Part shown: piece after piece, positions 27,957-52,557 of the stretch
Numbering within the stretch: position 1 is the first letter of the stretch
Layout of the letters: each line of letters begins with the position of its first letter
IMG/VR virus record: IMGVR_UViG_3300032280_000320
Coordinates: 50,332-114,331 of that record
DNA: 64,000 nt
Strand: one strand, 5' to 3'
Origin: a virus
Taxonomy: Duplodnaviria; Caudoviricetes
Translations under genes and position numbers: made by a program
Notes under the pieces: generated by a model
Seen by the model: only the letters and a program-made list of their open reading frames with translations
What the model was told of the DNA's origin: nothing
Databases searched by the model: none

Positions 27957-28559
27957 TTACCAAAGCCAAAAACCTGGGCACATATACTTTGTGCCAGATA
28001 TTAACTTTTTAGATTGGTGCAGATATGGCTCTGAAGATGGGAATATGACTATGCTTCCAGCTTGAGGCTTTATAGTAACATTTTGATTTGGAAATGCTAA
28101 CTCTCCACCTTCATAATCATCGTTTAAATATGAAACAATAGAGTATCTTAATCTTGAATTTCCGTCATTTTGATCAGCATGTGGACCCATTTCTGTTCCA
28201 ACATTATACTTTTTAATAGCTGAGTCGGTATCAATTTTTACATCGCCTTCTACATTATTATACTGTTTATATAATGAAGCGCAGAATTTCATATTTGCAA
28301 TAACGCTATTAATTATATAAAGCTCTTTTGAAGAAGGCTCTTTACCAATTTTTTCATAATTAGCATCAATCATTTTTGCATAGCCGTATACTGTATCTGA
28401 ATCGTTGCTTGCTGTCCAAGGCTTCCATTTAGATATAAATGCAGTATCAATTGAATCGTCATTCTCTGACTGCTCTATAAGATCTATTAATCTGCTAGGC
28501 TCAGAAATTGAATTAGTAAAATAAAATATGTTTGGTGCTAATTGGTGAAACTCGTACAT
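27957..28559 (-). CDS. 2OG-Fe(II) oxygenase, prolyl 4-hydroxylase-like
   Basis: GPHAD...YLNDDYEGGEL...YLHQS...GTKY (HxD...H...K). Confidence 0.88.
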   Translation of the reverse strand: MYEFHQLAPNIFYFTNSISEPSRLIDLIEQSENDDSIDTAFISKWKPWTASNDSDTVYGYAKMIDANYEKIGKEPSSKELYIINSVIANMKFCASLYKQYNNVEGDVKIDTDSAIKKYNVGTEMGPHADQNDGNSRLRYSIVSYLNDDYEGGELAFPNQNVTIKPQAGSIVIFPSSEPYLHQSKKLISGTKYMCPGFWLW

Positions 28560-28560
28560 T

Positions 28561-29277
28561 TCAATCTCCTATAAACTCGGTTCCAGTAAACCAAAATGAT
28601 GGACACATGTATTTGTGTCCACTTTTAACTAAATGTGCTGTGTGACTGTATGGTGATGATGAAGGGAATAATATTGCACTTCCCGCCTTTGGTTTTACAG
28701 AAACTGTTATCTTGTTTGCATTTTCTTTTGCAAGGAAGTCTGGGTGAGGCTTTTCTTCATGGCCAACAATTCCATCTTGTATTGTAAATGAAATTTCTCC
28801 ACCCTCGTAATCATCGTTAAGATATAATACTACAGAATATCTTAATCTTGTATCTCCTTCTTGCTGATCAAAATGTCCTCCCATAAAAGTTCCAACATCG
28901 TACTTATTGATTCCGACATCTTGGTACATATTAAGAGGGTCTTCTATTTTATAAAAATCTCTATATGCTTCAAATGAATTTTTGAATGCTGAGTTTATTG
29001 TGCCAAATATATAAGAAAACTTATCTAATGTATCTTCGTCAACAACTTTTGCTAGATCACCAGATTTGTAGCTTTTCCAATGATCTGAGTTTATGTTTTT
29101 ATTTGTGCCATAAACATACATTTCTCCACTGCAGGCTTCCCATGATTTCCATTTTGGAATTAATGTAGTAATCTTTTCGTTATCTTCTGTTTTTTCAATT
29201 GCAGAAATTAACTCCTCATGGTTGTCAATTAAACCTGTTATATAAAGTATGCCATTGTTTATCTCTGTTACATTCAT
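28561..29277 (-). CDS. 2OG-Fe(II) oxygenase, prolyl 4-hydroxylase-like
   Basis: GGHFD...YLNDDYEGGEI...YSHTA...GHKY. Confidence 0.88.
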   Translation of the reverse strand: MNVTEINNGILYITGLIDNHEELISAIEKTEDNEKITTLIPKWKSWEACSGEMYVYGTNKNINSDHWKSYKSGDLAKVVDEDTLDKFSYIFGTINSAFKNSFEAYRDFYKIEDPLNMYQDVGINKYDVGTFMGGHFDQQEGDTRLRYSVVLYLNDDYEGGEISFTIQDGIVGHEEKPHPDFLAKENANKITVSVKPKAGSAILFPSSSPYSHTAHLVKSGHKYMCPSFWFTGTEFIGD

Positions 29278-29286
29278 AGTGTCTCC

Positions 29287-29874
29287 TTAGTGAACTATTG
29301 TTCCATTTCTCCAAAAATGCGGTATAAATATTTTTCTGCCAGAAGTTAACTTTAAAGAGCCATGTAAATATGGCTCTTTTGAAGGAAACAAAATAATACT
29401 ACCAGCTTTTGGCTTTAGTGTTATATTCTGCTTGCTAAAGTATATCTCTCCTCCTTCATAATTATCATTTAGATATATTACAAAAGAATATTCAAGCATT
29501 TTTTGATCTTCGTTCCAATCAGTATGCTGACCCATTTCTTGTCCCTCAGCATATTTATTTAAAACAAAATCTTTAGCTATTCCAGGCTCATCTTCTATAT
29601 CATATAGTTTAGCATATTCTTTAGCACAAGCGTACATGGCATCAATTATTTCCATTGTAAGTTTGCCTGAATCTGACTCCCGCTGTGAAGAATCTTTTAT
29701 TGATATAAATTTTCTTTCTCCATAGACATATGTTGTTTCTGCATTTGCTTCCCAGCTTACCCAATCTGAAATAACATCATCACTGATTGAATCAACTTTT
29801 TCAACCCATTTTTCTGGGTTTGATATTGCGTCTTCAAAATAAACTATTTTATCATATAGAACTTGAGATTTCAT
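29287..29874 (-). CDS. 2OG-Fe(II) oxygenase, prolyl 4-hydroxylase-like
   Basis: GQHTD...YLNDNYEGGEI...YLHGS...GRKI. Confidence 0.88.
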   Translation of the reverse strand: MKSQVLYDKIVYFEDAISNPEKWVEKVDSISDDVISDWVSWEANAETTYVYGERKFISIKDSSQRESDSGKLTMEIIDAMYACAKEYAKLYDIEDEPGIAKDFVLNKYAEGQEMGQHTDWNEDQKMLEYSFVIYLNDNYEGGEIYFSKQNITLKPKAGSIILFPSKEPYLHGSLKLTSGRKIFIPHFWRNGTIVH

Positions 29875-29875
29875 A

Positions 29876-30619
29876 TTAAAGACCCTTTGCTGGCCTACTA
29901 GAAACTCCTGGTCCTGGTAAAAGCCTTTCTCCTCGTTCTCTCATCTCAGCCCATTCTTCAGCATCTTTTGCTTGCTGTAGTCTTGCTTCTGCGATTTCCG
30001 TTTCCCATCTAGCTCTTGTTTCATCAGTATATTCTATTTCTTCAAAATCCCAAAACGATCCAACTGTATATCTTGTGCCATCTTCTATTGGTAGGACTTC
30101 GTGTATATTGTGATGTCCGCCCTCAAATGCTGCAAGCAGTCCTTTTCTTGGCTTTATTGTTATCTCGTGATCTCTAAAGTTAAGCTCTCCACCTTCAAAG
30201 TCATCGTTAAGATAAAGGAATGTTGCCATTTTACTTCTTTCAAATGCATTATACTCTGGGCTATCTAATGGAGTATTGTCTGAATGGAATCCAGCAAATG
30301 CTCCTTTTATCCATTTTTGTGAATGATAGCTAACTTTTCTAAGTGGTCCACCTCTTGTATCTTCGGTGGCAGCTTTAATTCCAGCCTCTAAATCTGTAAA
30401 GAAGTTTGCTGGTAGCCCAAACTGAAGCATGTCGTCATCTTCTGGTAAGTTTGAAGAGAATGATTCGTAGAAAGAAATTGGTCCCCAAATAAGAGTACCC
30501 TTTTCTGTTGAGTGTTCCCAATACTTTAATATAGCATCACAGTGTTCTGGCGATATGAAGTTTTCGTATAAAACTACATCGCTTTTTAAAACCTTCTTGC
30601 CATCAAGATTATATATCAT
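29876..30619 (-). CDS. 2OG-Fe(II) oxygenase, prolyl 4-hydroxylase-like
   Basis: GFHSD...YLNDDFEGGEL...NIHEV...GTRY. Confidence 0.88.
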   Translation of the reverse strand: MIYNLDGKKVLKSDVVLYENFISPEHCDAILKYWEHSTEKGTLIWGPISFYESFSSNLPEDDDMLQFGLPANFFTDLEAGIKAATEDTRGGPLRKVSYHSQKWIKGAFAGFHSDNTPLDSPEYNAFERSKMATFLYLNDDFEGGELNFRDHEITIKPRKGLLAAFEGGHHNIHEVLPIEDGTRYTVGSFWDFEEIEYTDETRARWETEIAEARLQQAKDAEEWAEMRERGERLLPGPGVSSRPAKGL

Positions 30620-31457
30620 TTAGTCTTCTCGCTTTCGATACGTCTTGTCGATTTATCTGTTGATAAACTCCGTTTGCCCTGTCTCTTTTCCATCTTTCTC
30701 TTTCCATCTCTGCCCATATTTCTTCTCCATAAAGCTGCTGGTTTTTTATCCATTCTTCAGTGCCTTCATGAAATCTAAGCATATTGTTTCTGATAAAGTA
30801 CTTTGGCTTACCCGTAATTTTTCTAACTCCATGATGGTATAACTCATCACCATCTGTTAAGAAATTAGGATCTCCTGCTGGGAAAACAATTACATCTCCA
30901 GCTTTTGGCTTATAGTAAAATAGCTTATCATTTATATAAAAATCAACTCCGCCGCCTTCGTAGTCATCATTTAAATACATAGTTACGGTTACAGCAAAAT
31001 TATATCCTCTAGCGTCTCTTTTTTCTACTTGGTAGTCTGTGTGATAGTGCATTGCAAGATCTAGTGCTACTTCTGCTTCTTCATTATACTTGCATATAGA
31101 AGGACCCATTTTTATCCATTTGTTTTTTGATTTACCATCAACTTCATCAAGAAACGATTCAAATGAATATTCAACATTATTTTTCTTAAAATAGTCATCA
31201 ACTACTGTGAAAAATACTCCTTCTATTTCTGCTAAAGCTTCTCTTTCTTTTATGACCCTTGGAGTGTCTTCTGCATCACGAATAAAATTATCTGCTTCTA
31301 GACCAAACGTATACCAATCTTCCCAAGGATGAATCATTGACCCTTCAGGATTTACCTCTGACTCTATTATTGTATTTAAAAGTGAGTCTAGGTCTCTGAA
31401 TGTGTTAGAATAAACAAAAATCTTTGGATAAATTTCTCTGTACTGAAGTTCACTCAC
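30609..31457 (-). CDS. 2OG-Fe(II) oxygenase, prolyl 4-hydroxylase-like
   Basis: HYHTD...YLNDDYEGGGV...YHHGV...KPKY. Confidence 0.87.
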   Translation of the reverse strand: MSELQYREIYPKIFVYSNTFRDLDSLLNTIIESEVNPEGSMIHPWEDWYTFGLEADNFIRDAEDTPRVIKEREALAEIEGVFFTVVDDYFKKNNVEYSFESFLDEVDGKSKNKWIKMGPSICKYNEEAEVALDLAMHYHTDYQVEKRDARGYNFAVTVTMYLNDDYEGGGVDFYINDKLFYYKPKAGDVIVFPAGDPNFLTDGDELYHHGVRKITGKPKYFIRNNMLRFHEGTEEWIKNQQLYGEEIWAEMERERWKRDRANGVYQQINRQDVSKARRLNDI

Positions 31458-32143
31458 GGCTGCTTTTCTCCTGTATGTTTTAATATATTCCAGAAAAATG
31501 GTGAGGTATATCTATTACCAGATAATACTGGTCTTACTCCATGAACATAATTTCTATCTCCTGGGAAGAAGTAAGCTGATCCAGCATTTGGCTTAAATTC
31601 AATTCCTTGTATTGGAAAAAATAGTTCTCCGCCTTCGTAGTCATCGTTAAAATAAAATATTGATGCAATGTCGTAATGTGGGAAATCGTTAGGTGTTCCA
31701 GCATCTGGGCCTTCATGAAGTTCTTTGTCTGCATGAGGATCTTGTCTAGTTCCAACTGGCCATCTTACAATAGCTGGTCCTGTTGCCTGTACATCTACAT
31801 CAAAAAATTTATCTACTTCTTTTTTAAGTCTGACAATTAATCCTTCAACAACAGCTACAATTGAAGGGTCATGTGATATATCCATTGATTTTCTTGTGCA
31901 TACTCTGTCTGCCCAGACGTTTGCATCATATATAACTGTCCCGTTTTCATTAAAATGTGACTCTGTTATATCCCATGTCTTGTTGCTAAATGCAAAATCA
32001 GTTAATCTTTGCTTTTCTGATTCAGTTAAGAAGTTTTTTAACTCAACAATATTATCTGTTGAATCACCAAAAAAACCAGAAGGTGTAATTGATGTAAGCT
32101 CTTTGTAATTATGCTCTTTGTTTGTATTTACTTGCTTTTGCAT
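31454..32143 (-). CDS. 2OG-Fe(II) oxygenase, prolyl 4-hydroxylase-like (probable start 32143)
   Basis: DPHAD...YFNDDYEGGEL...YVHGV...GNRY; AGGAG RBS before the ATG at 32143. Confidence 0.88.
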   Translation of the reverse strand: MQKQVNTNKEHNYKELTSITPSGFFGDSTDNIVELKNFLTESEKQRLTDFAFSNKTWDITESHFNENGTVIYDANVWADRVCTRKSMDISHDPSIVAVVEGLIVRLKKEVDKFFDVDVQATGPAIVRWPVGTRQDPHADKELHEGPDAGTPNDFPHYDIASIFYFNDDYEGGELFFPIQGIEFKPNAGSAYFFPGDRNYVHGVRPVLSGNRYTSPFFWNILKHTGEKQP

Positions 32144-32151
32144 TTTTTCTC

Positions 32152-32901
32152 CTATTGGTATTTTCTTTTTGACCAAAACTTCTTTTTATAGACTCCACCA
32201 TCTGGTGTTCTAAATGTATTAGCTGTCTCCATATGCTTTTGTAAAATCTCTTCTGCCGTCCTAAAAACCAAGTCTGATTCCCAGTCTTCTCTTTTGAAAG
32301 GAATTATTTGCATATACGGTGTGCCTGCTGGCACTACGCCTGTAAAACCTTTTTGCAAGAAAAACGGGATAAGACCTGAGTTAGTTACCTTATCACTATC
32401 TATTATACCAGCCACTGTTAAAAATGGTAAATCAAATCTATTAACTGGCGATAGGTATATTGCACTATATCCTTCTGGAAGTACTGGTGCCCAATTTGCA
32501 TACCAATGAAAATGATCATCGTCATACCCTGCTGGGGTTACAAATCCTTCCATGACTGTTCTTTCTCCAACAAAATCTTCAAAACCAATATCTGTCTTGA
32601 CTTTTGTTCTCCCACGCTTTTCATAAAACTCAATATCGCATGGAGTAAGTAGGGCATATCCTGTTGTAAATATATCAAGTATTGCTGGGCAGGACTTATA
32701 CGACATGACCTTTGATACCCCATCTTGGTTTACGTAAGGTACGCCATTTGGATCTTTAATATAAATGCTTGCATCTTGCCACCATTTTGCAATTGATTTA
32801 CTCATAGGAGATGGGGAATGAGTGCCATCTTTTTTATTATAAGTTTTATTAGAATGAAATGTTATTTTATTTGTCACTGCAGGCCACTGGCTTTCCGTCA
32901 T
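32152..32901 (-). CDS. Hypothetical beta-fold protein (DUF6065/dUTPase-like fold), oxygenase-cluster associated
   Basis: KSCPAILD...GYSAIYLSPVNR...GIIDSD...PAGTPYMQIIPFKRE shares the C-P...GTP..QIIP pattern with the neighbouring gene. Confidence 0.5.
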   Translation of the reverse strand: MTESQWPAVTNKITFHSNKTYNKKDGTHSPSPMSKSIAKWWQDASIYIKDPNGVPYVNQDGVSKVMSYKSCPAILDIFTTGYALLTPCDIEFYEKRGRTKVKTDIGFEDFVGERTVMEGFVTPAGYDDDHFHWYANWAPVLPEGYSAIYLSPVNRFDLPFLTVAGIIDSDKVTNSGLIPFFLQKGFTGVVPAGTPYMQIIPFKREDWESDLVFRTAEEILQKHMETANTFRTPDGGVYKKKFWSKRKYQ

Positions 32902-33589
32902 TAACCTTTAATCTTAAAGCTTTTATTTCATGATCACCTATTTTATTACCATAATGATCTACGCCATCTCTATAGAAATTTGTCCATTTGCCAGCCTTAT
33001 TTATTTCATAAACAATATCTCCATATTTATCATCTGGGAAAAACCCTGGAGGCAATTCAAACATATCACGAACTACCGCTTCTGAGTTGTTTAGTTCTTG
33101 TAATGATATTGGCATTATGGATATTACTGGTGTGCCAGCCTTAATAGTAATTACTGTATCTGGTCTAGTAATTCTCCATGCTACTGGAAATTCACCTTTA
33201 AAGAATGAAGTTGATATAACTCCAGTAAATGGGTGTGCTCCGTCTATAAATTGATTAGGGACGGGCATTCCCATTATACTGAGGTTCTCTTCAGTTCTAA
33301 AAAGCAAACCAGTATTAAAGCTTATAGTTGCATTTCCTCTTGTGTTATGTGCGTACTTTTCTCCTGAAAGGATCTTTACGTGATCTGATTCTGAATTAGA
33401 AATGCCATCCCATATAAAGCTAATATCCTCTGGGAAAGATATCCCCCAACCAAGAGCATTTGAAAGACTTACTGGAAAGCATTTATATGCATGCGCCTCA
33501 TAAGTTTCGTCCATCCAGGATCTTTTTATTCCCAGTGGCTCAAGCTTTCCATAGTTTGCTCTTGTTTGGTAGACATCAAATTTGTGCAT
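32867..33589 (-). CDS. DUF6065-like protein
   Basis: KRSWMDET...HAYKCFPVSLSNALGW...FPVAWRIT...KAGTPVISIMP resembles the DUF6065 R.WMD...AY.C.P...N..GW signature. Confidence 0.7.
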   Translation of the reverse strand: MHKFDVYQTRANYGKLEPLGIKRSWMDETYEAHAYKCFPVSLSNALGWGISFPEDISFIWDGISNSESDHVKILSGEKYAHNTRGNATISFNTGLLFRTEENLSIMGMPVPNQFIDGAHPFTGVISTSFFKGEFPVAWRITRPDTVITIKAGTPVISIMPISLQELNNSEAVVRDMFELPPGFFPDDKYGDIVYEINKAGKWTNFYRDGVDHYGNKIGDHEIKALRLKVNDGKPVACSDK

Positions 33590-34266
33590 TAGTACTCACT
33601 ATCTTTTAATGAAAGATTCGTAGCATGTTGTTTATAAAATTCTGGCGAATGTGCAGAATCATTATAGTCAGTCATTGTTACTAAGGAATATTTTGTTCCA
33701 GTTAGAACTGGCATTGCTCTATGTGAAAATAAATACGTTGATGGAAAAATAAATAAGTCTCCAGCATTTGGTTTTACCTCAATCCCAAGTTTTCCAAAGC
33801 TTAATCCGCCACCCTCGTAATCATCATTTAGGTATCCAACCATTGAAACTGTAGCAATATATGACCAGCCGTGGTCAGCATGCTCAGCAAAGTGTTGCCC
33901 TGGACCATACTTAATAAAATTCATTGCTTCCCAATACTTCATATCAATATTGTAAAACTTTGAGTAGTCATCTAGTGCAACCTTTTGAGCGTCATAAAGA
34001 TCTTGCCATACTCTATCAAATTCAAGCATGTACTCATCTTTGCCTGGGTAGTCCATCTTTTTTAATTTAAAATCGTAGCAATCACGATATTCTGGAATTT
34101 TTTCTCTATAGCCTACAGTGGCTTCTTTCCAGTTATGCAGTCCATTACTTGCCTTTAGAGTATTTTCAACTCTTTCAATGGCATTGATTTCTGGCTTTAA
34201 TACGTCACGGTATAGCCATAATCCAGGAAACAGCTCTTCTTTTGAAGAGTATCCAATATTTGACAT
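33589..34266 (-). CDS. 2OG-Fe(II) oxygenase, prolyl 4-hydroxylase-like
   Basis: KYGPGQHFAEHAD...YLNDDYEGG...FSHRA...GTKY. Confidence 0.88.
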   Translation of the reverse strand: MSNIGYSSKEELFPGLWLYRDVLKPEINAIERVENTLKASNGLHNWKEATVGYREKIPEYRDCYDFKLKKMDYPGKDEYMLEFDRVWQDLYDAQKVALDDYSKFYNIDMKYWEAMNFIKYGPGQHFAEHADHGWSYIATVSMVGYLNDDYEGGGLSFGKLGIEVKPNAGDLFIFPSTYLFSHRAMPVLTGTKYSLVTMTDYNDSAHSPEFYKQHATNLSLKDSEY

Positions 34267-34311
34267 TAATTACTTCTTTCTATTATTATCTAAATTAATA
34301 AAAAAATTAAT

Positions 34312-34704
34312 TTAGCTCCAAGCACTTCCAGTTTCTGGTAGGGTTTCAGAAGTTACTGGGTAAACTGATATACCTTCAGCTGCAGCCTTTATAAATGCCT
34401 GTACTGTTCCTGTACTTACATACATAACTCTTTTTATATAAAATATTTTATTGTCAGAGATAAAAGCAAATCTGTGCTGTCCTTCTACAATGTGTGCTGG
34501 TTCACTGTCATCATGAGTAAAAGATGTTCCATCCCATGTTGAGCCAATTCTTGCCTCTTCATTATCTGTTATATCAATAATGCCAGTTGTATTATCAAAT
34601 CCCGCTTTTTTTCTAGGATATGAAGGAGCTTCTGGATCTAATGTTACTGTTCCTAGAACAATATTATCTGAAACAAAAACGTATGAATTTTCTATAATTG
34701 CCAT
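34312..34704 (-). CDS. Hypothetical protein with internal duplication (FVSDN / FISDN; GSTWDG / GSAW)
   Basis: 130-aa ORF with AGGAG RBS; two similar halves, typical of small fibre-associated proteins. Confidence 0.6.
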   Translation of the reverse strand: MAIIENSYVFVSDNIVLGTVTLDPEAPSYPRKKAGFDNTTGIIDITDNEEARIGSTWDGTSFTHDDSEPAHIVEGQHRFAFISDNKIFYIKRVMYVSTGTVQAFIKAAAEGISVYPVTSETLPETGSAWS

Positions 34705-34733
34705 TTTTTTTCTCCTGTCAATAATTATATCAT

Positions 34734-34763
34734 TTAAGTGGGGCTGTTGCCAGCCCCACTTAA
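34734..34763. terminator. Perfect hairpin after the PPxF gene (terminator or processing stem)
   Basis: TTAAGTGGGGCTG-TTGC-CAGCCCCACTTAA, 13-bp stem. There is no clear U-tract on the minus strand. Confidence 0.55.
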
Positions 34764-34770
34764 ACTTAAT

Positions 34771-35736
34771 TTAGTATCTGAATCCGAACCGTGGTGGTGC
34801 GAAGTACGGTGGGAAGTATGGTGGTGAGAATCCGAAGTACGGATATCCTCCAAAGTAAGGTGGGAAGTATGGTGGTGAGAACCCGAAGTACGGTGGGAAG
34901 AATGGTGGGAAGTGTGGTGGGAAGAATGGTGGGAAGTGTGGTGGGAAGAACGGTGGGAAGAATGGTGGGAAGTGTGGTGGGAAGAATGGTGGGAAGTATG
35001 GTGGGAAGAACGGTGGGAAGAATGGTGGGAAGTACGGTGGGAAGAATGGTGGGAAGTGTGGTGGGAAGAACGGTGGGAAGAACGGCGGGAAGTGAGGTGG
35101 GAAGAACGGTGGGAAGAACGGCGGGAAGTGAGGTGGTGTAAAGGTTGTAACCTGATTAGTACCCACTCCTGCTGATGTTCCGTTTGCGTTTAATGCATAA
35201 ACTGTATAACTTTGTGTTGTATTACCTGTCTCTGATATGTCTTTTGGAGATACAGAGTTTACGTAAGATGGGCCGTCTGAAGAAACTATAGTATAACTTG
35301 ATACTGCTTTTCCTCCATCTGATGTCGGTGCGTCCCATGTAACTCGGTCAGTGTTATTAGCAGGAGTTGTTGCAACTGCGTTTCTTGGTGCTGAAGGAAC
35401 TGTGGTTGCTGTTACTGCAGCAGATGCAGCAGATGCAGCAGAAGTTCCAGCAGCATTTGTTGCAGTTACTGTAAATGTTACAGATGCTGCTGACGCAATA
35501 CCTTCAACAAGAAGTGGAGAAGATGCTCCAGTTTTTGTTTGTCCAGTACTTGCTGTTACTGTATATGATGTAGCGGCAGGAGAGAGTGCTGGTAGGGAAA
35601 AAGCTACAGATACTGCAGCATTATTAAATGCTCTACCCGTTCCAACATCTGTTCCTGTGACACCTATCGGTGCTAAAGGCTCTAAGAAGTCATTTGACGC
35701 CTGAGACTTTTTACCTATTTTCTTACCTGATGCCAT
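34771..35736 (-). CDS. Fibronectin type III-domain protein with C-terminal (PP[F/H/Y]F)n tail
   Basis: Two FN3-like repeats (SYTVTAS...[12 protein letters not shown]; [11 protein letters not shown]...[12 protein letters not shown]), then 25 PPxF units and a terminal PPRFGFRY. Confidence 0.85.
34774..35136 (-). repeat. 12-nt coding tandem repeat encoding [12 protein letters not shown]
   Basis: Plus-strand units such as GAAGAATGGTGG, GAAGTGTGGTGG and GAAGTATGGTGG; 21 contiguous tetrapeptides plus 4 more. Confidence 0.95.
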
Positions 35737-35768
35737 TTTTATCTCCTAATTTCTTACTGAATTTTTTA

Positions 35769-37802
35769 TTACGCTGTCAAGTCGCCGAAGACAACCCATG
35801 TATTTTGTGCTCTCTTGAATAGAGTTGCAGATGACCATTGGGTTCTCAACTTTAATCCTGGTGTTGCATTTACTGTTACTCCTGCACCTGCGGCTACTGT
35901 TACTTGACCTGCTCCAGTTTGAAGAATATCAATTGAAGTTCCAATTGGATAATCAACTGCTGATGCTGGTGGAATTGTTAGAGTTAGTGCTGATCCTGAA
36001 CCCATTTCAATTAGGTCATCTCTTTCAGTTAGTGATGAAAGTGTGTATGATGCTGTCTTCTGTGAAATTGGTGTTAAAGAGTCTACCTTTAATCCAAGGC
36101 TAGTTGTTACTGTTGCTGCAAAGTTTGCATCATCACCAAGGGCTGCAGCAAGCTCATCAAGTGTGTTAAGGGCTGCTGGAGCACCTGTTAGTAGTGCGTT
36201 AACCTGTGATGTAGCATCTGCGATTGCTTCTGCTTTTGCAGTTGCGATTGCTGAAGCTTGTGCTGTAGATACTGGCTTTGCTGTATCTGCTGTGTTATTA
36301 ACATTACCAAGACCTAAGCTTGTTGCTGTAACTGCTGCAACTTCTGACTTAAGAGCAAGAAGTGATGTGTCTGCAATGCCATGTACTGCTGTTGTATCTA
36401 ATGTATGTGTTGAAACTGCTGAATCTGCATAAGCTTTTGTTGCAAGATCTGCGGTGTTTGCAATTCCGTGAACATTTGTTTCATCTGCTGCGTGGGTTGT
36501 TAGATCTCCTGCATTTGCTTTTAAGTCTAATGCTGTCTGTGTAGCAGTTGAAATTGGCTTTGCTGCATCTGCTGTATCATCTACGTTAGAAAGACCAACC
36601 ATGCCCTTAGTTATTCCGCCAACTGTACCAGTAAATACTGGTGAAGCTAGTGGTGCTTTTTCATCTAACTGAGTCTGTACGTTAGATGTAACATTGTTTA
36701 GGTATCCAATTTCAGTGTTTGAAACATCACCGATTGATGTTGTTGCTGGAAGTGTTACTGATCCTGTAAATACAGGGCCTGCTGAAGGAGCTTTGCTATC
36801 TAACTGAACTTGTATGGCAGATGTTACTCCGTTGACATATCCAATTTCAGTGTTTGAAACATCACCGATTGATGTTGTTGCTGGAAGTGTTACTGATCCT
36901 GTAAATACAGGGCCTGCTGAAGGAGCTTTAGCATCTAGCTGTACTTGTAGGTTTGATGTTACTCCATCTACATATCCAATTTCAGTTGCTGAAACGTTTC
37001 CAATTGTTGTTGTTGAAGGAAGAACAACTCCTCCAGTAAATGTTGGTGAATTTAGTGGAGCTTTAGTATCTATTGCTGTTAGTGCTCCCTGTACAACAGA
37101 AGCGTCAGCCTTTGCTGTTAATGCTGTTGTTACTGTAGATGCAAAGTTAGCATCATCGCCAAGGGCATCTGCAAGTTCGCTTAATGTATTTAAAACTGCT
37201 GGTGCTGCACCAACAAGTTGAGCAAATGCTTGATCTGTGTATGACTCTGCATACATCTTTGTTGCCATAACTGATGTGTCGGCTGATACTGTAATTGTGT
37301 TAGCTACATCGTCGTATGACTTTGTTACACCAGTTCCAGCAATCATTGCTGTATTAACTGCGTCTTGAGCAGATTCTGCTAATTCAGATTTTACTGCAAT
37401 CACGCTAGTATCTACGCTTACAGTAATAGTATTAGCTGCATCGTCGTATGACTTTGTGATTCCAGTTCCAGCGGTAATTGCTGTATTAACTGCATCTTGT
37501 GATAACTCTGTTATATCTAATTGAGATGCTGGCACTTTACCTGAACTGTTAAGTGATGCTACACCATTAGCCTGACCAAGTAGATTATCTTCAAGATAAG
37601 CTCCTACTCTATTCTCTAAATCAGACAATGGTTCATTTGCATAAGGAAGGGCATTCCATGCCACGCTTCCAGTTCCAAATTTAAAATAATTTGTGTCGGA
37701 CTCTAGTCCAACTTCTCCTGCTGCTAGAATTGGGTTAACTTGAGCCCATTGAGCTTCTGTTCCTCTTCTTACTTGAATTCTTACTGTTGACATATTTGCC
37801 AC
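35769..37802 (-). CDS. Tail fibre/decoration protein with Mtd-type N-terminal domain and internal repeats
   Basis: VRIQVRRGTEAQWAQVNPILAAGEVGLESDT (Mtd_N-like); repeated KAPSAGPVFTGSVTLPATTSIGDVSNTEIGY and APAALNTL.ELA.ALGDDANF; C-terminus LRTQWSSATLFKR...WVVFGDL. Confidence 0.75.
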   Translation of the reverse strand: MANMSTVRIQVRRGTEAQWAQVNPILAAGEVGLESDTNYFKFGTGSVAWNALPYANEPLSDLENRVGAYLEDNLLGQANGVASLNSSGKVPASQLDITELSQDAVNTAITAGTGITKSYDDAANTITVSVDTSVIAVKSELAESAQDAVNTAMIAGTGVTKSYDDVANTITVSADTSVMATKMYAESYTDQAFAQLVGAAPAVLNTLSELADALGDDANFASTVTTALTAKADASVVQGALTAIDTKAPLNSPTFTGGVVLPSTTTIGNVSATEIGYVDGVTSNLQVQLDAKAPSAGPVFTGSVTLPATTSIGDVSNTEIGYVNGVTSAIQVQLDSKAPSAGPVFTGSVTLPATTSIGDVSNTEIGYLNNVTSNVQTQLDEKAPLASPVFTGTVGGITKGMVGLSNVDDTADAAKPISTATQTALDLKANAGDLTTHAADETNVHGIANTADLATKAYADSAVSTHTLDTTAVHGIADTSLLALKSEVAAVTATSLGLGNVNNTADTAKPVSTAQASAIATAKAEAIADATSQVNALLTGAPAALNTLDELAAALGDDANFAATVTTSLGLKVDSLTPISQKTASYTLSSLTERDDLIEMGSGSALTLTIPPASAVDYPIGTSIDILQTGAGQVTVAAGAGVTVNATPGLKLRTQWSSATLFKRAQNTWVVFGDLTA

Positions 37803-37854
37803 CCCTAATTTAGACTTATTTTGTAATTATAGCATCATAAAAATTCAAAAACAA

Positions 37855-38244
37855 TTAACCAATTGTTCCTGAATCAAAAGTCATACTATAGCTTGTTGTG
37901 CCTGTATCTCCACCGTCTGCAAACTTTGTAGCCGTACTATTGACTCCATTTGCATAAACTGTGTATATTGGCTGACCATCAAAATCTATGGCCAAACCAA
38001 TGTCCATAAATGTTAGTGCTGTTGTATCTTCGACTGCATCTTCTAAAAGAGCTATCTCTTTCCATACTCCGCCAACTTGGATCTTTAGTCTTCCAGTCGT
38101 CGAATCATACGCTAGGGGTGTTGAATTTAATACAAGATTATCTACATTTACGGCAGAAGAAAATGTTGCTGCTCCTGCTATTGTTGCTGCTCCTGCGACA
38201 TTCAAGCCATTCTTTACTCTAAAGTTTTTATCTACTGTTGCCAT
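37855..38244 (-). CDS. Virion structural protein, hypothetical
   Basis: N-terminus MATVDKNFRVKNGL is shared with the neighbouring gene. Confidence 0.6.
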   Translation of the reverse strand: MATVDKNFRVKNGLNVAGAATIAGAATFSSAVNVDNLVLNSTPLAYDSTTGRLKIQVGGVWKEIALLEDAVEDTTALTFMDIGLAIDFDGQPIYTVYANGVNSTATKFADGGDTGTTSYSMTFDSGTIG

Positions 38245-38276
38245 TTAAGTTCACATATCCCCTAATTGTTTTATTG

Positions 38277-38301
38277 TGGGGGATTTTTAAGGAATCCCCC
38301 A
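38277..38301. terminator. Intergenic hairpin, probable terminator
   Basis: TGGGGGATT-TTTAAGG-AATCCCCCA. Confidence 0.55.
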
Positions 38302-38315
38302 AAACCTTTATTTAA

Positions 38316-39608: not shown

Positions 39609-39622
39609 TTGCAACCCCCTTG

Positions 39623-40174
39623 TTAAGCTTTAAGCGCAGTTCTGTAATATCTAGCAGTTACGCTAGCGGCTACAGGAGTTACGCATAAACCAATTATACC
39701 TGAATTTTCTTCAAAAGTAACAGAAGCAAGCGTGTTATTTGTATTAGAAATAATGTTTGATTCTGCTACGTTTATGTTTGTACCATCATTCAAAATCACT
39801 AGAGATGAAGAAACGTATTCATTACCTCTTGTAATCTGAAGTTCATATTTTACTGTTCTGTATACTGTTTTTGAAAAAGTATCAATTGTTGTTTTGTTTT
39901 CTATACCATTTATAACAACATCATTATTACCTTCAAGGCCGAAAAGAATATCTCCAGCGTCTGTGGTATTTTGAAGTGTTGTAAGAGCAGTAGAAATCTC
40001 TGAGACCTTGTAGTCTAATGAGTCTGGATCTGTAGATCCATCTACACCAACCTTTGTCTGTATTGCTTCTAGAGCATCATTGATGTCTGTGTGAAGAGCT
40101 GCGTGACCAGATAAAGAGTCTGTTGCCGACGGATTATCTAGGTTATCTAAAGTTGTTGGAAAATCTGTTGCCAT
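39623..40174 (-). CDS. Virion structural protein, hypothetical
   Basis: MATDFPTTLD...HAALHTDINDALEAIQTKVG N-terminus; the C-terminal domain (YRTVKYELQI) resembles that of 38316..39608. Confidence 0.6.
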   Translation of the reverse strand: MATDFPTTLDNLDNPSATDSLSGHAALHTDINDALEAIQTKVGVDGSTDPDSLDYKVSEISTALTTLQNTTDAGDILFGLEGNNDVVINGIENKTTIDTFSKTVYRTVKYELQITRGNEYVSSSLVILNDGTNINVAESNIISNTNNTLASVTFEENSGIIGLCVTPVAASVTARYYRTALKA

Positions 40175-40227
40175 GTTGCCTCCATGCGGTGTAACCTTAT
40201 CTAATTATATCGTATATTTTATTATGA

Positions 40228-40461
40228 TTACCACTTTTTTAGTGGACATTCCGCATATTTTATTTTTGTTTTAGCTTTCATTATACACCCACATTCTTTA
40301 CATTGTGTTGTAAGACTTATGAATCTTGGGCATTCTTTGCATATAGATAGTTTTGATTCCGCTTCATCATCAGATACATACTCAGTTCTAGGATTCAATA
40401 AATCCCACGGTCTTGTATCTCCAAGCTTTTCTTTATAGTTTTCCCATGCAGAAAGTGTCAT
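40228..40461 (-). CDS. Small Cys-rich (probable Zn-binding) protein
   Basis: CKEC...QCKECGC...CPLKKW; translationally coupled to the upstream PPxF gene. Confidence 0.7.
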   Translation of the reverse strand: MTLSAWENYKEKLGDTRPWDLLNPRTEYVSDDEAESKLSICKECPRFISLTTQCKECGCIMKAKTKIKYAECPLKKW

Positions 40462-42842
40462 TAGTATCTAAATCCAAAACGTGGTGGTGAAACAGCAAAG
40501 TGTGGTGGGAAGAACGGTGGGAAGTGTGGTGGTGTGAATGCAAAGTATGGGAATCCACTAAAGTACGGTGGGAAAAACGGTGGGAAGTGTGGTGGGAAGA
40601 ACGGTGGGAAGTGAGGTGGGAAGAACGGTGGGAAGAACGGTGGGAAGTGTGGTGGGAAGAACGGTGGGAAGTGTGGTGGTGTAAATGCAAAGTATGGGAA
40701 TCCGCCAAAGTACGGTGGGAAGAACGGTGGGAAGTGTGGTGGTGAAAACGCAACGGTTGCACAAGCTGCTTGTGCGGCAGCAGCGAGTGCTGCTGCATAG
40801 GTAGATCTATAAACTATTTTTTCTCTTGAATTAGATGCGCCAGTTAGTACATCTGCTGGCATTGATGATGCAGTATAAGGACCAGCAGCAGAAGGGGCGG
40901 ATATATATGCACCGCTGTTTGCATTACACCAGGAAGTTCCAATGTAATATTCTATTGCAATAGGTTCTACATATCCGCAATCTGCTGAATTCCAAGTCCA
41001 ATATACAGTTGCCTGATAAGTCTTATCTCCATATGTTGGTGATCCAGTACAGTCTCTATAAATTCCTTGAGCAACTCCATTTAAATAATATTGTTCTCTG
41101 TATCCATAAATTGGTCTGGACCAAGTCATTTTTGTTGTTCCAGTACAGTCATATCCATAATCAGTTCCGTTATTATACTGTGTACATGCACCCCAAGTTG
41201 CTACTGGTGCAGGTGCAGAAGGAACTCTAGAATTTGATGTTGCAGTTGCTGATCCTGCGCTATTGCTTGCTGTAACTATACATTTAATTGAAAATCCATC
41301 TAGGTATGATGGTGTTGTTATTGAAGATCCAGTTCCTATATTTATCCAAACTGATCCCTGGTCATTATACTGCCACTGATAAGAGTAAGATGTTGGATTA
41401 TTATTCCAAGTTCCAACACTTGATACTGACCAGTCTCTATTTGATCCAGATATAACTGGTGAGCCACCAGCCCATGTTGGCGCAATAACTGTTGGTGGTT
41501 TAACAACTGATTGAGCTGAGTTGCTGCTTGCCACTGGTGTAGTTAAAGTTAAATCGGTTAACAAAAGTTGTACGGTACATGATATTGCTTTGTTGTCATA
41601 AGCTGTTGTGTCATAAAGATTAATTGTATCTGATTCATATATAAATATATTATCTATTGGTGATCCGTCTGCAAACCATTCATATAAATATGAATATATT
41701 GATGAAGTGTTTGTCCATGTTCCAGTTGTTGCAGAAAATACTCTTCCATTAGATGTAGACACTGTAGGGGCTACTGTATTTACTGGTTTTGGTACCGCTG
41801 GGTAATTGATTGCAAGTCCAGGAGAAGAGCTCCAAGATGTCTCATCAAATCTTGGCGCAGTTCCATTTATTGTTATTGTAAATGAGCCAAACGATGCGCC
41901 TCCTACTCCAACCTCTTGAATAGTATATGAGGTTACGTTAGGTCCTCCATTCATAAAGCTACCTGCGTATGAAACCCCATTATTATATATAATCCAAGAT
42001 GTTGGCTGTATTAAATTTAATGACCAGTTTAATGTTGCGCCAGACATGTTCGCCCCAGTCATTGTAGTTGTTACTGATGGCTTATTTGGCTTTAGGTCAT
42101 TAACGGATCCATTTTTACCATAGCCCGTTACTGTCATTCCACTCACATTGGAAGTGTTTAAAGGATTAATTAACAGGCCAATAGTCCCATCAGCATTACC
42201 AGTATCAAATGTATATGTGTTAACATCTCCAAGAGAAGGCACCTGGGTAAATGATACTTCAGGACCTTGATATTGTAGATAGAAATCATTTGCTCCAATT
42301 GGCTTTACCCAATCAATCTTTACAACACCATTTTCTACAACTGTAACAGTTAAGTTTGTTAATTTTTGTGGGGCAATAATAGGTGTTGGTAAAGTATATA
42401 CTGGCTCTCTGTTATCTCCATATTGATTGGTTGCAGTAACTTTGCATCTTACTACATATCCAACATATTTTAATGTTCTTGAAGAATTCCATTCATCTTC
42501 ATTTAAGAATAACGAGTTCTCTGTTTTACCATTAATGTCAGACCAATTTAAAGATGATCCAGAATAAGGAGCTTTTTGCCATTGGTACCTATAAGATGTT
42601 GGAGAATTATCCCATGTTCCAGTTGAGACAGATATGGTTTCTTGTGCTCCATATAAATAATTATCTGGTTGTAAAGATATAATTGGCAATACTTTGTTTA
42701 TTGGAGTAACTTCTGTTACTGGTTTCCAAGTTGTGCCGTCATAAATAAAAATGCGCTTAGCATCATTCCAGGTAATCCCGTCATGAAGTTTTATTTTTTT
42801 GAAGGGATTCCACGAAGAACCATTCCAAATATTTAGCGGCAT
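40461..42842 (-). CDS. Multi-Ig/FN3-like virion protein with C-terminal (PP[F/H/Y]F)n tail
   Basis: Three repeats of the type STGTW.N.PTSY.YQW...C.VTA.N, a Cys-rich segment, then 16 PPxF units and a terminal PPRFGFRY. Confidence 0.85.
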   Translation of the reverse strand: MPLNIWNGSSWNPFKKIKLHDGITWNDAKRIFIYDGTTWKPVTEVTPINKVLPIISLQPDNYLYGAQETISVSTGTWDNSPTSYRYQWQKAPYSGSSLNWSDINGKTENSLFLNEDEWNSSRTLKYVGYVVRCKVTATNQYGDNREPVYTLPTPIIAPQKLTNLTVTVVENGVVKIDWVKPIGANDFYLQYQGPEVSFTQVPSLGDVNTYTFDTGNADGTIGLLINPLNTSNVSGMTVTGYGKNGSVNDLKPNKPSVTTTMTGANMSGATLNWSLNLIQPTSWIIYNNGVSYAGSFMNGGPNVTSYTIQEVGVGGASFGSFTITINGTAPRFDETSWSSSPGLAINYPAVPKPVNTVAPTVSTSNGRVFSATTGTWTNTSSIYSYLYEWFADGSPIDNIFIYESDTINLYDTTAYDNKAISCTVQLLLTDLTLTTPVASSNSAQSVVKPPTVIAPTWAGGSPVISGSNRDWSVSSVGTWNNNPTSYSYQWQYNDQGSVWINIGTGSSITTPSYLDGFSIKCIVTASNSAGSATATSNSRVPSAPAPVATWGACTQYNNGTDYGYDCTGTTKMTWSRPIYGYREQYYLNGVAQGIYRDCTGSPTYGDKTYQATVYWTWNSADCGYVEPIAIEYYIGTSWCNANSGAYISAPSAAGPYTASSMPADVLTGASNSREKIVYRSTYAAALAAAAQAACATVAFSPPHFPPFFPPYFGGFPYFAFTPPHFPPFFPPHFPPFFPPFFPPHFPPFFPPHFPPFFPPYFSGFPYFAFTPPHFPPFFPPHFAVSPPRFGFRY
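40464..40742 (-). repeat. Second PPxF 12-nt coding tandem repeat
   Basis: GAAGAACGGTGG / GAAGTGTGGTGG units interrupted by [G/S]GFPYFAFT spacers. Confidence 0.95.
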
Positions 42843-49332: not shown

Positions 49333-49412
49333 ATACGACCTCTTCTCCGCCCTGCGGTGTAATTTTTGTGTGAAGTCCTAGTGTATCAAACTTTTTTTTA
49401 CAGGTCTAGTGT

Positions 49413-51809: not shown

Positions 51810-51890
51810 TGTAAGTTGAGCTTTTAGTTCCTTACATGTGCTTAGGCACAACAGAACCCAGTCGGATCCGCCTCTGACTGGGTTTTGTGC
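51810..51890 (+). ncRNA. Candidate ~80-nt small RNA (three hairpins, last one terminator-like)
   Basis: Lies between the promoter and the CAGAACCCAGTCGGA-TCCGCC-TCTGACTGGGTTTTG stem; internal stems TGTAAG/CTTACA and TGTGC/GCACA. Confidence 0.5.
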
Positions 51891-52453: not shown

Positions 52454-52557
52454 ATCTATATTCTATCATTTTGTAGAACATAGTGCGAAAAATAGTGCAA
52501 AAAAAGTGCTTCGGCGGCAGAAGAACCCTTTTATAAATTTGGGTGTATAATAATAAT

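What the first reader, a model, noticed from the sequence alone, without database searches (positions are those of the whole stretch)
27957..42842. Candidate virion-protein tailoring system: (PP[F/H/Y]F)n substrate tails beside seven prolyl-hydroxylase-like oxygenases
Seen: inside the virion module, an FN3 protein ends in 25 [12 protein letters not shown] units. It is followed on the same strand by one small gene and then nine tightly packed genes: seven divergent 2OG-Fe(II) oxygenases, all with intact HxD...H...R/K, and two DUF6065-like genes. A collagen-repeat fibre comes next. A second, unrelated Ig-repeat protein (40461..42842) carries 16 of the same units. Established: this oxygenase family hydroxylates Pro in polyproline-II substrates (collagen, plant extensins), and related enzymes hydroxylate His and other residues. 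Inference: the layout resembles a precursor-plus-tailoring-enzyme cluster. Different paralogs may modify different Pro/His/Phe/Tyr positions to build an extensin-like adhesive, cross-linked or protease-resistant filament on the virion. I know of no described phage system of this kind.
Basis: partly seen in the sequence, partly recalled or inferred. Interest (0 to 1): 0.92.

Follow-up and report, generated by a model that had tools for sequence, protein, structure and literature searches.

The report
Phage Pro-Phe tails with matched hydroxylases
An uncultured phage ends two fibre-region proteins in long proline-phenylalanine repeats and encodes seven proline-hydroxylase-like enzymes beside one of them; related phages keep the enzymes only where the repeats are proline-rich, so the repeats are their likely, still untested, target.

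Summary
A 321-aa FN3-like protein ends in 26 PPxF units and a 793-aa protein in 17. Seven PF13640 oxygenases, all with an intact HxD...H...K/R, and two dUTPase-fold DUF6065-type genes lie downstream.

- Of 58 related loci with at least 6 kb downstream, 54 with proline-rich tails have at least 4 oxygenases. The 4 with FSFTP- or FGA-type tails have none.
- The array-less phages are close kin of array-bearing ones (flanking RNR 94-99% identical).
- Searching from the enzyme side, 48 of 48 loci have a Pro-aromatic tail gene just upstream.
- Repeat "dialect" matches enzyme set (18 and 17 tail proteins, no exception). A second, distant tail protein in the same genome shares the dialect.
- The modelled enzyme is nearest to peptidyl prolyl 4-hydroxylases.

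No chemistry is shown. Arrays of this kind, with the dUTPase-fold partner, were described for cyanophage Syn9 (Iyer 2010) without a substrate. Syn9 has no PPxF, so the class has other targets too. Chlorovirus PBCV-1 is the precedent for a viral P4H acting on viral Pro repeats. This scan has already reported the same system on many other genomes.

The parts
34771..35736 (-). 321-aa protein: conserved N-terminus, FN3-like domains, then a tail of 26 PPxF units (residues 201-321, about 34774..35136) ending in PPRFGFRY. Candidate substrate.
   Evidence: Homologues in 78 of 79 related loci.
34733..34764 (-). 14-bp-stem palindromic hairpin directly after the tail gene's stop codon, followed by a TGnTATAAT-like element. 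It probably marks the boundary between the fibre transcription unit and the enzyme operon.
   Evidence: In related loci, 15 of 35 distinct downstream sequences fold at -21 kcal/mol or lower, against control means of -7.5 to -12.1.
34312..34704 (-). 130-aa protein of unknown function. Not a conserved member: found only in the window's nearest relatives (e.g. L040).
33589..34266 (-). Oxygenase 1 (225 aa), the most conserved paralogue. P4H-like, with H129, D131, H182 and K192 invariant.
32867..33589 (-). DUF6065 protein (240 aa), dUTPase-like fold, invariant Cys37.
32152..32901 (-). DUF6065-like paralogue B (249 aa). Keeps an invariant Cys and a G-I-I-D-S-D-type motif.
31454..32176 (-). Oxygenase 2 (240 aa), PF13640. 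One copy per locus in 65 loci.
30609..31457 (-). Oxygenase 3 (282 aa), PF13640.
29876..30619 (-). Oxygenase 4 (247 aa), PF13640.
29287..29874 (-). Oxygenase 5 (195 aa), PF13640. Belongs to a lineage-variable orthogroup.
28561..29277 (-). Oxygenase 6 (238 aa), PF13640.
27957..28559 (-). Oxygenase 7 (200 aa), PF13640. Its positional counterpart in a sister lineage has lost the iron ligands.
40461..42842 (-). 793-aa protein with an unrelated N-terminal part and a tail of 17 PPxF units with the same PPRFGFRY end. Second candidate substrate, 4.7 kb upstream of the first.
26955..27935 (-). Collagen-repeat fibre with a Peptidase_S74 chaperone domain. A neighbour, not a conserved partner. Pro sits only in the X position (9 GPx, 0 GxP in 22 triplets).
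35769..37802 (-). Fibre protein with an Mtd_N domain directly upstream of the tail gene (context; conserved neighbour).
51890..54604 (-). Second dioxygenase cluster: two PF13640 genes (51890..52453, 53493..53999) and two JmjC_2 genes (52687..53241, 53996..54604), with tRNA-Ile inside. Not linked to the tails.

Best explanation
The seven paralogous P4H-type Fe(II)/2-oxoglutarate oxygenases form a dedicated protein-tailoring operon. Its substrates are the Pro-aromatic repeat tails carried by fibre-region adhesin-like proteins: here the FN3-type 321-aa protein and the 793-aa protein, and PASTA-type proteins in relatives.

Most likely the enzymes hydroxylate peptidyl proline in the PP dipeptides. 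The conserved paralogues would take different positions or ring carbons of the roughly 12-residue [12 protein letters not shown] super-repeat. The result would stiffen or otherwise change a long polyproline-II-like stalk between a binding domain and a C-terminal cap.

Shown: the anatomy, the intact active sites, the P4H-like fold of paralogue 1, and the co-occurrence and co-variation of tails and arrays. Inferred: that the tails are the substrate, that proline is the modified residue, that the proteins sit on the virion, and what the modification achieves. The role of the two dUTPase-fold DUF6065 proteins is unknown; I guess an accessory or recognition role.
For: 1. Enzyme identity.
- 7 of 7 genes match PF13640 above the cut-off.
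- HxD...H...K/R is kept in the large majority of unique orthologues: 62/62, 44/44, 36/40, 38/39, 33/35, 19/19 and 8/8 in the main groups.
- The profile of paralogue 1 hits B. anthracis P4H and collagen lysyl hydroxylases (E 1.5e-4 to 2.7e-3).
- Its AF2 model (pLDDT 88.3) is nearest to algal P4H with a (Ser-Pro)5 peptide, PPHD, PHD2 and PBCV-1 vCPH (E 3e-11 to 4e-10).

2. Forward association. Of 58 loci with an FN3 homologue and at least 6 kb downstream, 54 of 54 PP-type tails are followed by at least 4 oxygenase ORFs. 4 of 4 non-PP tails (3 FxFxP, 1 FGA) are followed by none. Counting distinct tail proteins gives 40/40 and 4/4.

3. Whole genomes. The complete array-less genome G001 (109 kb, terminal repeats) has 1 PF13640 match. 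PP-type genomes G005 and G006 have 10 each.

4. The array-less phages are close kin of array-bearing ones. The flanking RNR is 94-99% identical and the two kinds interleave on the tree. Between G010 and G001 the portal is 80% identical and the RNR 98%.

5. Reverse association. Starting from paralogue 1 (best 80 of 587 relatives), 48 loci have at least 2.5 kb upstream of the first oxygenase ORF. 46 have a Pro-aromatic repeat ORF within 6 kb upstream by regex. The other 2 have a P-x-F-C dialect tail, seen by eye.

6. Dialect matches enzyme set. 18 of 18 His-containing strict PPxF tails go with one ox1-group copy plus orthogroup 6 or 7. 17 of 17 His-free PFF/PPFF tails go with two ox1-group copies plus orthogroup 5. 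L052 carries the His-free type on a window-like backbone (RNR 88% identical to the window's).

7. A second tail-bearing protein 5-9 kb away shares the dialect in every genome where I saw one: window, L040, L043 group, L005, L007, L037, L009 group.

8. A more distant lineage behaves the same. Of 15 loci holding small PASTA-(PPxF)n proteins with at least 6 kb downstream, 12 have 3-6 oxygenase ORFs and a DUF6065-like ORF downstream.

9. Precedent. PBCV-1 P4H hydroxylates Pro-Ala-Pro-Lys repeats (review PMC3634087, passages).
Against: - No chemical evidence of any kind.
- Tail and array are contiguous, so one recombination event can move both. The independent events are few: about 2-3 array-less cassette types, two dialect and array types, one backbone swap, one further lineage.
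- All loci were found by homology to the tail protein or to the enzyme, so sampling is not neutral.
- Array-less phages still keep one PF13640 gene, a JmjC homologue and a DUF6065-like gene. That DUF gene stays next to the tail gene even without oxygenases.
- Syn9 has a comparable array right after its fibre genes but no PPxF anywhere in its genome (0 pattern hits). The enzyme class therefore does not need PPxF.
- 3 of 15 set-2 loci lack a nearby array. One of them has it 12 kb away; the other two are fragments.
- A hairpin and a promoter-like element separate the tail gene from the array, so the two may be expressed apart.
- The window genome has five more dioxygenases elsewhere with no tail nearby.
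- Virion location of the tail proteins rests on gene position only.
Confidence: 0.6

Rival explanations
1. The array is an auxiliary metabolic or secondary-metabolite module: small-molecule or peptide-metabolite oxidation as proposed for Syn9, or drawing down 2-oxoglutarate as proposed for cyanophages. It merely rides in a hypervariable cassette next to the tail gene, and the tails are not its substrate.
For: - Iyer 2010 proposed secondary-metabolite synthesis for the Syn9 array.
- Sullivan 2010 (PMC3037559, passages) proposed 2OG/NtcA or DNA-repair roles.
- PHROGs files the family under 'moron, auxiliary metabolic gene'.
- Syn9 has the array without PPxF.
- The array has its own promoter-like start after a hairpin.
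- Further dioxygenases sit far from any tail.
Against: - The association with Pro-rich tails is exceptionless in both directions.
- The enzyme set matches the repeat dialect.
- A distant second tail gene shares the dialect.
- The nearest structures are all protein hydroxylases, not small-molecule enzymes.
- No peptide synthetase, halogenase or transporter was found among the ten array genes.
Confidence: 0.15
2. The enzymes modify some other protein, such as neighbouring fibres, the collagen-repeat fibre or a host surface or translation protein. The Pro-aromatic tails are docking or scaffold elements for the enzymes or for virion assembly, rather than substrates.
For: - Bacterial relatives of this family hydroxylate EF-Tu (PDB 4iw3 and 5v7y titles among the fold hits).
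- A collagen-repeat fibre follows the array in the window.
- One positional paralogue in a sister lineage has lost its iron ligands yet is conserved, which suggests a binding-only role.
Against: - The collagen-like ORF is present in only 9 of 79 loci, and its Pro is never in the Y position (0 GxP in 22 triplets).
- The only partner conserved across lineages is the Pro-aromatic tail.
- Proline-free tails come without enzymes, which fits proline as the target better than a generic dock.
Confidence: 0.12
3. The cluster acts on nucleotides or DNA. The dUTPase-fold proteins and the oxygenases would make or modify a nucleotide, in line with nearby ribonucleotide reductase.
For: - The DUF6065 model matches dUTPases (E 2e-4, TM to target 0.6-0.69).
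- Paralogue B keeps an Asp-containing motif that I recall as resembling the catalytic third motif of dUTPases (recalled, not tested).
- In array-less phages the lone DUF6065-like gene lies directly next to the RNR gene.
- There are weak sub-threshold Tet_JBP hits (E 1.3e-3; 5.6e-3).
Against: - No sequence match of the paralogue-B profile to any solved dUTPase or deaminase (0 hits at E up to 10).
- The oxygenases match PF13640 and P4H structures, not AlkB or TET.
- The association with proline content of the tails is unexplained by this reading.
Confidence: 0.05

Closest known systems
Chlorovirus PBCV-1 prolyl 4-hydroxylase (vCPH, PDB 5c5t) acting on viral Pro-rich repeats
   Same: A virus-encoded monomeric P4H-family enzyme in a genome that also encodes Pro-rich repeats. 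vCPH is rank 8 among the fold neighbours of paralogue 1 (E 4.4e-10). The enzyme hydroxylates Pro-Ala-Pro-Lys repeats (review PMC3634087, passages).
   Different: PBCV-1 is a eukaryotic algal virus with one enzyme. Here a tailed phage has seven conserved paralogues plus two dUTPase-fold proteins in one operon, placed directly beside the repeat gene. The repeats are aromatic (PP[FHY]F), not PAPK. No activity has been shown here.
Tandem dioxygenase array of Synechococcus phage Syn9, gp41-gp54 (Iyer, Abhiman, de Souza, Aravind 2010, PMC2938197)
   Same: [quoted passage not shown] Syn9 gp43 looks like paralogue B here. The array follows the tail-fibre genes. A JmjC member exists in both genomes.
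   Different: Syn9 has two tryptophan halogenases and no PPxF anywhere, and its authors proposed secondary metabolites. Here there are no halogenases among the array genes, the JmjC genes lie in a separate cluster, and a candidate protein substrate is adjacent.
Plant and algal P4H with extensin or polyproline substrates (Chlamydomonas P4H, PDB 3gze and 2jig)
   Same: Best fold neighbour of paralogue 1 (E 2.9e-11). Monomeric enzymes that accept polyproline-II substrates (review PMC3634087).
   Different: 17-18% sequence identity only. The substrates there are Ser-Pro-rich and later glycosylated. Whether the nearby GT4 (49413..50402) has any link to the tails is untested.
RiPP precursor-plus-tailoring-enzyme clusters
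   Same: The layout works alike: a substrate gene, then a hairpin, then an operon of modifying enzymes.
   Different: The substrates are 321-793-aa multi-domain proteins, not short leader-core peptides. No leader, protease or exporter was found. Not a member.
Mimivirus collagen lysyl hydroxylase L230 (PDB 6ax6 and 6ax7)
   Same: A virus-encoded hydroxylase of the same superfamily branch thought to modify the virus's own fibre proteins. It is hit by the paralogue-1 profile (E 2.6e-3) and by fold (E 1.1e-8).
   Different: That is a lysyl hydroxylase fused to a glycosyltransferase and acts on collagen repeats. That role is recalled, not read here.

Membership tests
P4H-like 2OG-Fe(II) oxygenases (Pfam PF13640) | Profile match above the curated cut-off | tested here: met
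   7 of 7 array genes, 32.6-51.1 bits against a cut-off of 27. Also 51890..52453 and 53493..53999.
P4H-like 2OG-Fe(II) oxygenases (Pfam PF13640) | 2-His-1-carboxylate triad (HxD...H) and a basic 2OG-binding residue about 10 residues after the distal His | tested here: met
   Present in all seven (alignment). H129, D131, H182 and K192 are invariant in 29 orthologues of paralogue 1. Kept in most unique orthologues of the other groups. Absent in 11 of 11 members of orthogroup 6, a group the window does not have.
P4H-like 2OG-Fe(II) oxygenases (Pfam PF13640) | Double-stranded beta-helix fold, nearest to peptidyl prolyl hydroxylases | tested here: met
   Paralogue 1 only: model pLDDT 88.3. The ten best Foldseek hits are all prolyl hydroxylases. 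The other six paralogues were not modelled.
P4H-like 2OG-Fe(II) oxygenases (Pfam PF13640) | Peptidyl-proline hydroxylation with 2OG decarboxylation | not testable with these tools
   Needs an enzyme assay or mass spectrometry.
Collagen prolyl 4-hydroxylase system | Substrate with X-Pro-Gly triplets (Pro in the Y position) | tested here: not met
   The neighbouring collagen tract has 9 GPx and 0 GxP in 22 triplets.
Syn9-type tandem dioxygenase array (Iyer 2010) | Several tandem classical 2OG dioxygenases of different families | tested here: met
   Seven in tandem. The paralogues share roughly 30-40% identity with each other, while positional orthologues in other phages reach up to 96%.
Syn9-type tandem dioxygenase array (Iyer 2010) | dUTPase-fold protein with a conserved cysteine inside the array | tested here: met
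   Two such genes. Fold; Cys invariant in 38 sequences. Feature as described in PMC2938197.
Syn9-type tandem dioxygenase array (Iyer 2010) | Tryptophan halogenases and a JmjC (MINA-like) member within the array | tested here: not met
   No halogenase or JmjC among the ten array genes. Two JmjC_2 genes lie 18-20 kb away.
DUF6065 (Pfam PF19541) | Profile match | tested here: met
   32867..33589 at E 1.8e-34. 32152..32901 only indirectly: hhalign 93.8%, phrog_7084 at E 1.9e-30, and nearest Atlas clusters that carry PF19541 on 12% of members.
dUTPase superfamily enzymes | Sequence relation and catalytic motifs of dUTPase or dCTP deaminase | tested here: inconclusive
   Fold similarity only (E 2e-4, 9-17% identity). 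The profile of paralogue B finds no solved chain. The motif resemblance is recalled, not tested.
RiPP biosynthetic clusters | Short precursor with a leader and core, leader protease or exporter | tested here: not met
   The substrates are 321 and 793 aa with folded domains. No protease or transporter family was found among the array genes.

The most novel reading that the evidence does not exclude
The array is a position-specific 'hydroxylation code' for a new kind of virion biomaterial. Each conserved paralogue would oxidise a defined site of the 12-residue [12 protein letters not shown] super-repeat: proline C4 and C3, and perhaps beta-carbons of His, Phe or Tyr. This would turn a Pro-aromatic tail into a rigid, hydroxyl-rich, extensin- or mussel-adhesive-like stalk that carries FN3, PASTA or Ig-like binding domains. 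Enzyme sets and repeat dialects would co-evolve and be exchanged between phages as matched cassettes that set adsorption properties. The dead paralogue and the dUTPase-fold proteins would serve as substrate-holding subunits.
Probability: 0.2. Interest if true: 0.9.

Novelty: new variant of a known kind. Interest (0 to 1): 0.72.

Why it matters
Multiple 2OG-Fe(II) oxygenase genes are among the commonest unexplained genes of aquatic phages. They have been read as metabolic, DNA-repair or secondary-metabolite genes since at least 2010 (PMC3037559, PMC2938197). Here they come with a concrete candidate substrate encoded next door and with natural controls: sister phages whose tails lack proline lack the enzymes. 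That turns an old annotation problem into a simple co-expression and mass-spectrometry experiment. If confirmed, it would establish enzymatic hydroxylation of virion-associated proteins in tailed phages, reclassify a large set of 'auxiliary metabolic genes' as particle-tailoring genes, and reveal a new repeat material (Pro-aromatic stalks) with matched multi-enzyme chemistry.

Tried and rejected
- Complex prediction of paralogue 1 with tail residues 196-260: no verdict (score 0.01, mark 0.32, controls not run). Not used as evidence either way.
- Cultured phages (INPHARED): megablast of the region, and tblastn of the tail protein and of DUF6065, found nothing. The low-complexity filter may hide tail matches.
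- Nearest cultured phages by portal are Streptomyces phages at 55-58% identity. No Streptomyces phage appears among the 224 records that match paralogue 1, which are mostly cyanophages at 26-40% identity over part of the protein. So I found no cultured phage with this system.
- The collagen fibre as the conserved substrate: rejected.
- DUF6065 as a cupin or oxygenase: rejected, because the fold is dUTPase-like.
- The profile of paralogue B against solved structures: 0 hits.
- Hint or intein-like caps after some tails are only weakly supported: Hint_2 at E 1.6e-4, under the cut-off, for L008; a precomputed PF07591 on P0049; no hit for L004, L042, L049 or the L040 934-aa protein.
- The GT4 at 49413..50402 had no match at E 1e-10 in the parts of G001 and G010 that I compared, so I did not link it to the tails.
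- Supplementary files of the papers were not opened. The Iyer 2010 supplement lists the Syn9 families and might bear on which paralogues correspond.
- Papers: for PMC2938197, PMC3037559 and PMC3634087 I read passages found by term search only. Eriksson 1999 I saw only as a reference in PMC3634087.

Full report
**What is there.** The window is the last 64 kb of a 114,331-bp virus record rated complete. From about 1 to 50 kb all genes run on the minus strand. In transcription order the relevant stretch reads as follows.
- Ribonucleotide reductase (47401..49332; phrog_367, E 3.8e-186).
- Four small genes.
- An Mtd_N fibre (42854..44797).
- The 793-aa protein (40461..42842).
- Four small or Ala-rich fibre-like genes.
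- A second Mtd_N fibre (35769..37802).
- The 321-aa FN3-like protein (34771..35736), then a 130-aa gene.
- Nine tightly packed genes (27957..34266).
- A collagen/Peptidase_S74 fibre, a laminin-G protein, portal, protease, capsid, adaptor and a 3865-aa tape-measure-size protein.

By portal similarity the nearest cultured phages are Streptomyces phages of about 120-134 kb (55-58% identity). Together with PASTA domains on related tail proteins, this suggests an actinobacterial host. That is an inference.

- The 321-aa protein ends in 26 PPxF units and the 793-aa protein in 17. Both finish with PPRFGFRY. All other minus-strand ORFs together hold one PPxF in 16,046 residues.
- The repeat DNA has a 12-nt period.
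- The tail uses C-ending codons: TTC:TTT is 41:2 in the FN3 tail against 75:261 in 16 other genes, and CCG is enriched. This avoids homopolymer runs and argues for a selected coding repeat.
- The shared eight-residue end differs at three synonymous sites.
- Seven genes are PF13640 oxygenases with the full iron and 2OG-binding residues.
- One gene is DUF6065, and a second is its distant paralogue.

**What the enzymes are.**
- A profile of 29 orthologues of the first paralogue finds B. anthracis P4H, collagen lysyl hydroxylases and the mimivirus lysyl hydroxylase among solved structures, with modest E-values of 1.5e-4 to 2.7e-3.
- Its model (pLDDT 88.3) is closest to the Chlamydomonas P4H bound to a (Ser-Pro)5 peptide, then to bacterial, Dictyostelium and animal prolyl hydroxylases and to the PBCV-1 viral P4H. 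All ten best hits are prolyl hydroxylases.
- The paralogues are old. Each has a positional orthologue in phages whose tail protein is only 44-50% identical, and orthologues are more alike (48-81% in L073 and L054) than the window's paralogues are to each other (about 30-40%).
- Four orthogroups occur once per locus in 55-65 loci. The distal ones vary.
- The catalytic residues are kept almost everywhere. The exception is one orthogroup of a sister lineage that has lost both the HxD and the distal His.

**The DUF6065 pair.** The model of 32867..33589 (pLDDT 74.7) matches dUTPases by fold. One cysteine is invariant across 38 sequences of both paralogues. [quoted passage not shown] Syn9 gp43 looks like paralogue B. 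What it does is unknown. No solved protein matches its profile.

**Do tails and arrays go together?**

*From the tail side.* A search of viral contigs with the 321-aa protein gave 79 loci.
- Of the 58 with at least 6 kb downstream, all 54 with proline-rich tails have four or more oxygenase ORFs. In full-length loci these come with two DUF6065-type ORFs.
- The four with other tails have none. Their tails are (F/Y)-x-F-x-P repeats (L004, L005, L007) or F-G-A repeats without any proline (L042).
- The complete genome behind L005 has a single PF13640 match, far from the tail gene. Two 91-92% complete PP-type genomes have ten each.

*The array-less phages are not distant outliers.*
- The reductase gene that flanks the cassette is 94-99% identical between them and eight array-bearing phages. 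The three array-less loci do not form one clade, although divergence is too low for strong support.
- Between G010 (array) and G001 (no array) the flanking genes are 80-98% identical, while both are about 51% identical to the window's portal.

*From the enzyme side.* I took the best 80 of 587 relatives of paralogue 1. 48 loci have enough upstream sequence. 46 have a Pro-aromatic repeat gene within 6 kb upstream of the first oxygenase. The remaining two have a P-x-F-C variant of it.

*In a more distant lineage.* There a 120-190-aa PASTA protein carries the PPxF tail. 12 of 15 loci with enough flank have 3-6 oxygenases and a DUF6065-like gene downstream. Of the three exceptions, one has eight PF13640 matches 12 kb further on. 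The other two are large second tail proteins on fragments rated 13% complete.

**Finer co-variation.**
- Tails come in dialects. Strict PPxF with His about every third unit always goes with one copy of the paralogue-1 group plus orthogroup 6 or 7 (18 of 18 distinct tail proteins). His-free mixed PFF/PPFF tails always go with two copies plus orthogroup 5 (17 of 17).
- One His-free cassette (L052) sits on a backbone whose reductase is 88% identical to the window's. So the enzyme set follows the dialect rather than the backbone in at least that case.
- Where a genome shows a second tail-bearing protein several kilobases away, with an unrelated N-terminal part, it uses the same dialect and often the same C-terminal cap. 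This holds in the array-less phages too.
- That second point cannot be explained by the tail and the array being one contiguous block.

**Limits.**
- Nothing here shows hydroxylation.
- Tail and array are adjacent, so linkage explains part of the association. The number of independent evolutionary events is small.
- Every locus was found through homology to one of the two partners.
- Array-less phages keep one PF13640 gene, a JmjC homologue and a DUF6065-like gene. The last stays beside the tail gene and next to the reductase.
- The window genome has five further dioxygenases away from any tail: two PF13640 and two JmjC at 51.9-54.6 kb, and one PF13640 outside the window.
- Syn9 has an array directly after its fibre genes but no PPxF in the whole genome. 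The enzyme class therefore has other targets elsewhere.
- A strong hairpin and a promoter-like element separate the tail gene from the array in the window and in 15 of 35 distinct relatives. The two are probably separate transcription units.

**Most likely mechanism.** The tail proteins share one plan: a binding-type domain (FN3, PASTA or other), a Pro-aromatic stalk, and a short cap (PPRFGFRY, a Cys-rich knot, or a Hint-like domain). I think the array hydroxylates prolines of the PP dipeptides. Different paralogues would take different positions of the repeat, and the result would change the stiffness, stability or stickiness of a polyproline-II-like rod. At about 3.1 Å per residue, a recalled figure, 100 residues would span roughly 30 nm. 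Proline as the target is inferred from enzyme family and from the absence of arrays with proline-poor tails. Any modification of His, Phe or Tyr is speculation.

**Comparison with what is known, and novelty.** The nearest precedents are PBCV-1 P4H with PAPK repeats and the Syn9 array. The cyanophage literature treats these genes as metabolic or repair genes. I found no paper holding 'DUF6065' and none holding both 'PPFF' and 'phage'. This scan, however, has already noted the same system many times: 589 notes in at least 380 genomes hold the words 'DUF6065 oxygenase'. Earlier follow-ups reached similar conclusions. I used them as leads and re-tested the claims here. I rate the finding a new variant of a known kind: a viral P4H with viral Pro repeats, here as a multi-paralogue phage operon matched to aromatic Pro repeats.

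Noticed in passing
window 51890..54604: A second dioxygenase cluster: PF13640 (51890..52453), JmjC_2 (52687..53241), tRNA-Ile(TAT) at 53337..53412, PF13640 (53493..53999), JmjC_2 (53996..54604). With one more PF13640 outside the window (G000:C1:6957-7226) the genome has about 12 dioxygenases.
   Followed up: partly
window 47401..50402: A ribonucleotide reductase (phrog_367) and a GT4 glycosyltransferase sit just upstream of the fibre block. In sister phages the reductase lies directly after the oxygenase array, or directly after the lone DUF6065-like gene where the array is missing.
   Followed up: partly
L054 17703-18264, L060, L058, L074 and L067 (orthogroup 6): The last paralogue of the array in one sister lineage has lost HxD and the distal His but keeps the Arg and is conserved (0 of 11 unique sequences have the motif). 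It looks like a catalytically dead paralogue.
   Followed up: partly
L004 4030-5394, L008 6101-7477, L042 10001-11218, L049, L079, and the L040 934-aa protein: In some phages the tail is followed by a roughly 150-aa domain that starts with Cys and, in some, ends in His-Asn: Hint or intein-like. Only weak Pfam support (Hint_2 at E 1.6e-4 for L008; precomputed PF07591 on P0049). This suggests self-cleavage at the tail's C-terminus.
   Followed up: partly
window 34774..35136 and 40464..40715: Strong bias to C-ending codons in the tails (TTC 41:2, CAC 6:0, TAC 9:1, CCG enriched) against the genome's A/T-ending preference. This avoids T and C homopolymer runs.
   Followed up: yes
P0004 (300 aa) versus window 34771..35736: A public protein shares the window protein's C-terminal stretch (98% identity over the 40% of the query region that aligned) but has a different N-terminal FN3 part. 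The tail gene is mosaic, with a recombination point inside it.
   Followed up: no
L087 14427-16055 and equivalents in L088 and L092: Arrays of the PASTA-tail lineage also hold a roughly 540-aa TauD/TfdA-family dioxygenase (E 1.5e-23), a family absent from the window's array.
   Followed up: no
L169 6164-7022, L173 8295-9150: A further tail dialect with cysteine in every unit (P-x-F-C repeats), still followed by five oxygenases.
   Followed up: no
window 4309..15906: A 3865-aa ORF at the tape-measure position, unusually long. Other first-stage notes on it exist; I did not examine it.
   Followed up: no
L080 (Syn9) 13856-14806: Syn9 gp36, in the fibre block just upstream of the Syn9 dioxygenase array, is an extremely Gly-rich low-complexity protein. 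It could be looked at as a candidate substrate there.
   Followed up: no
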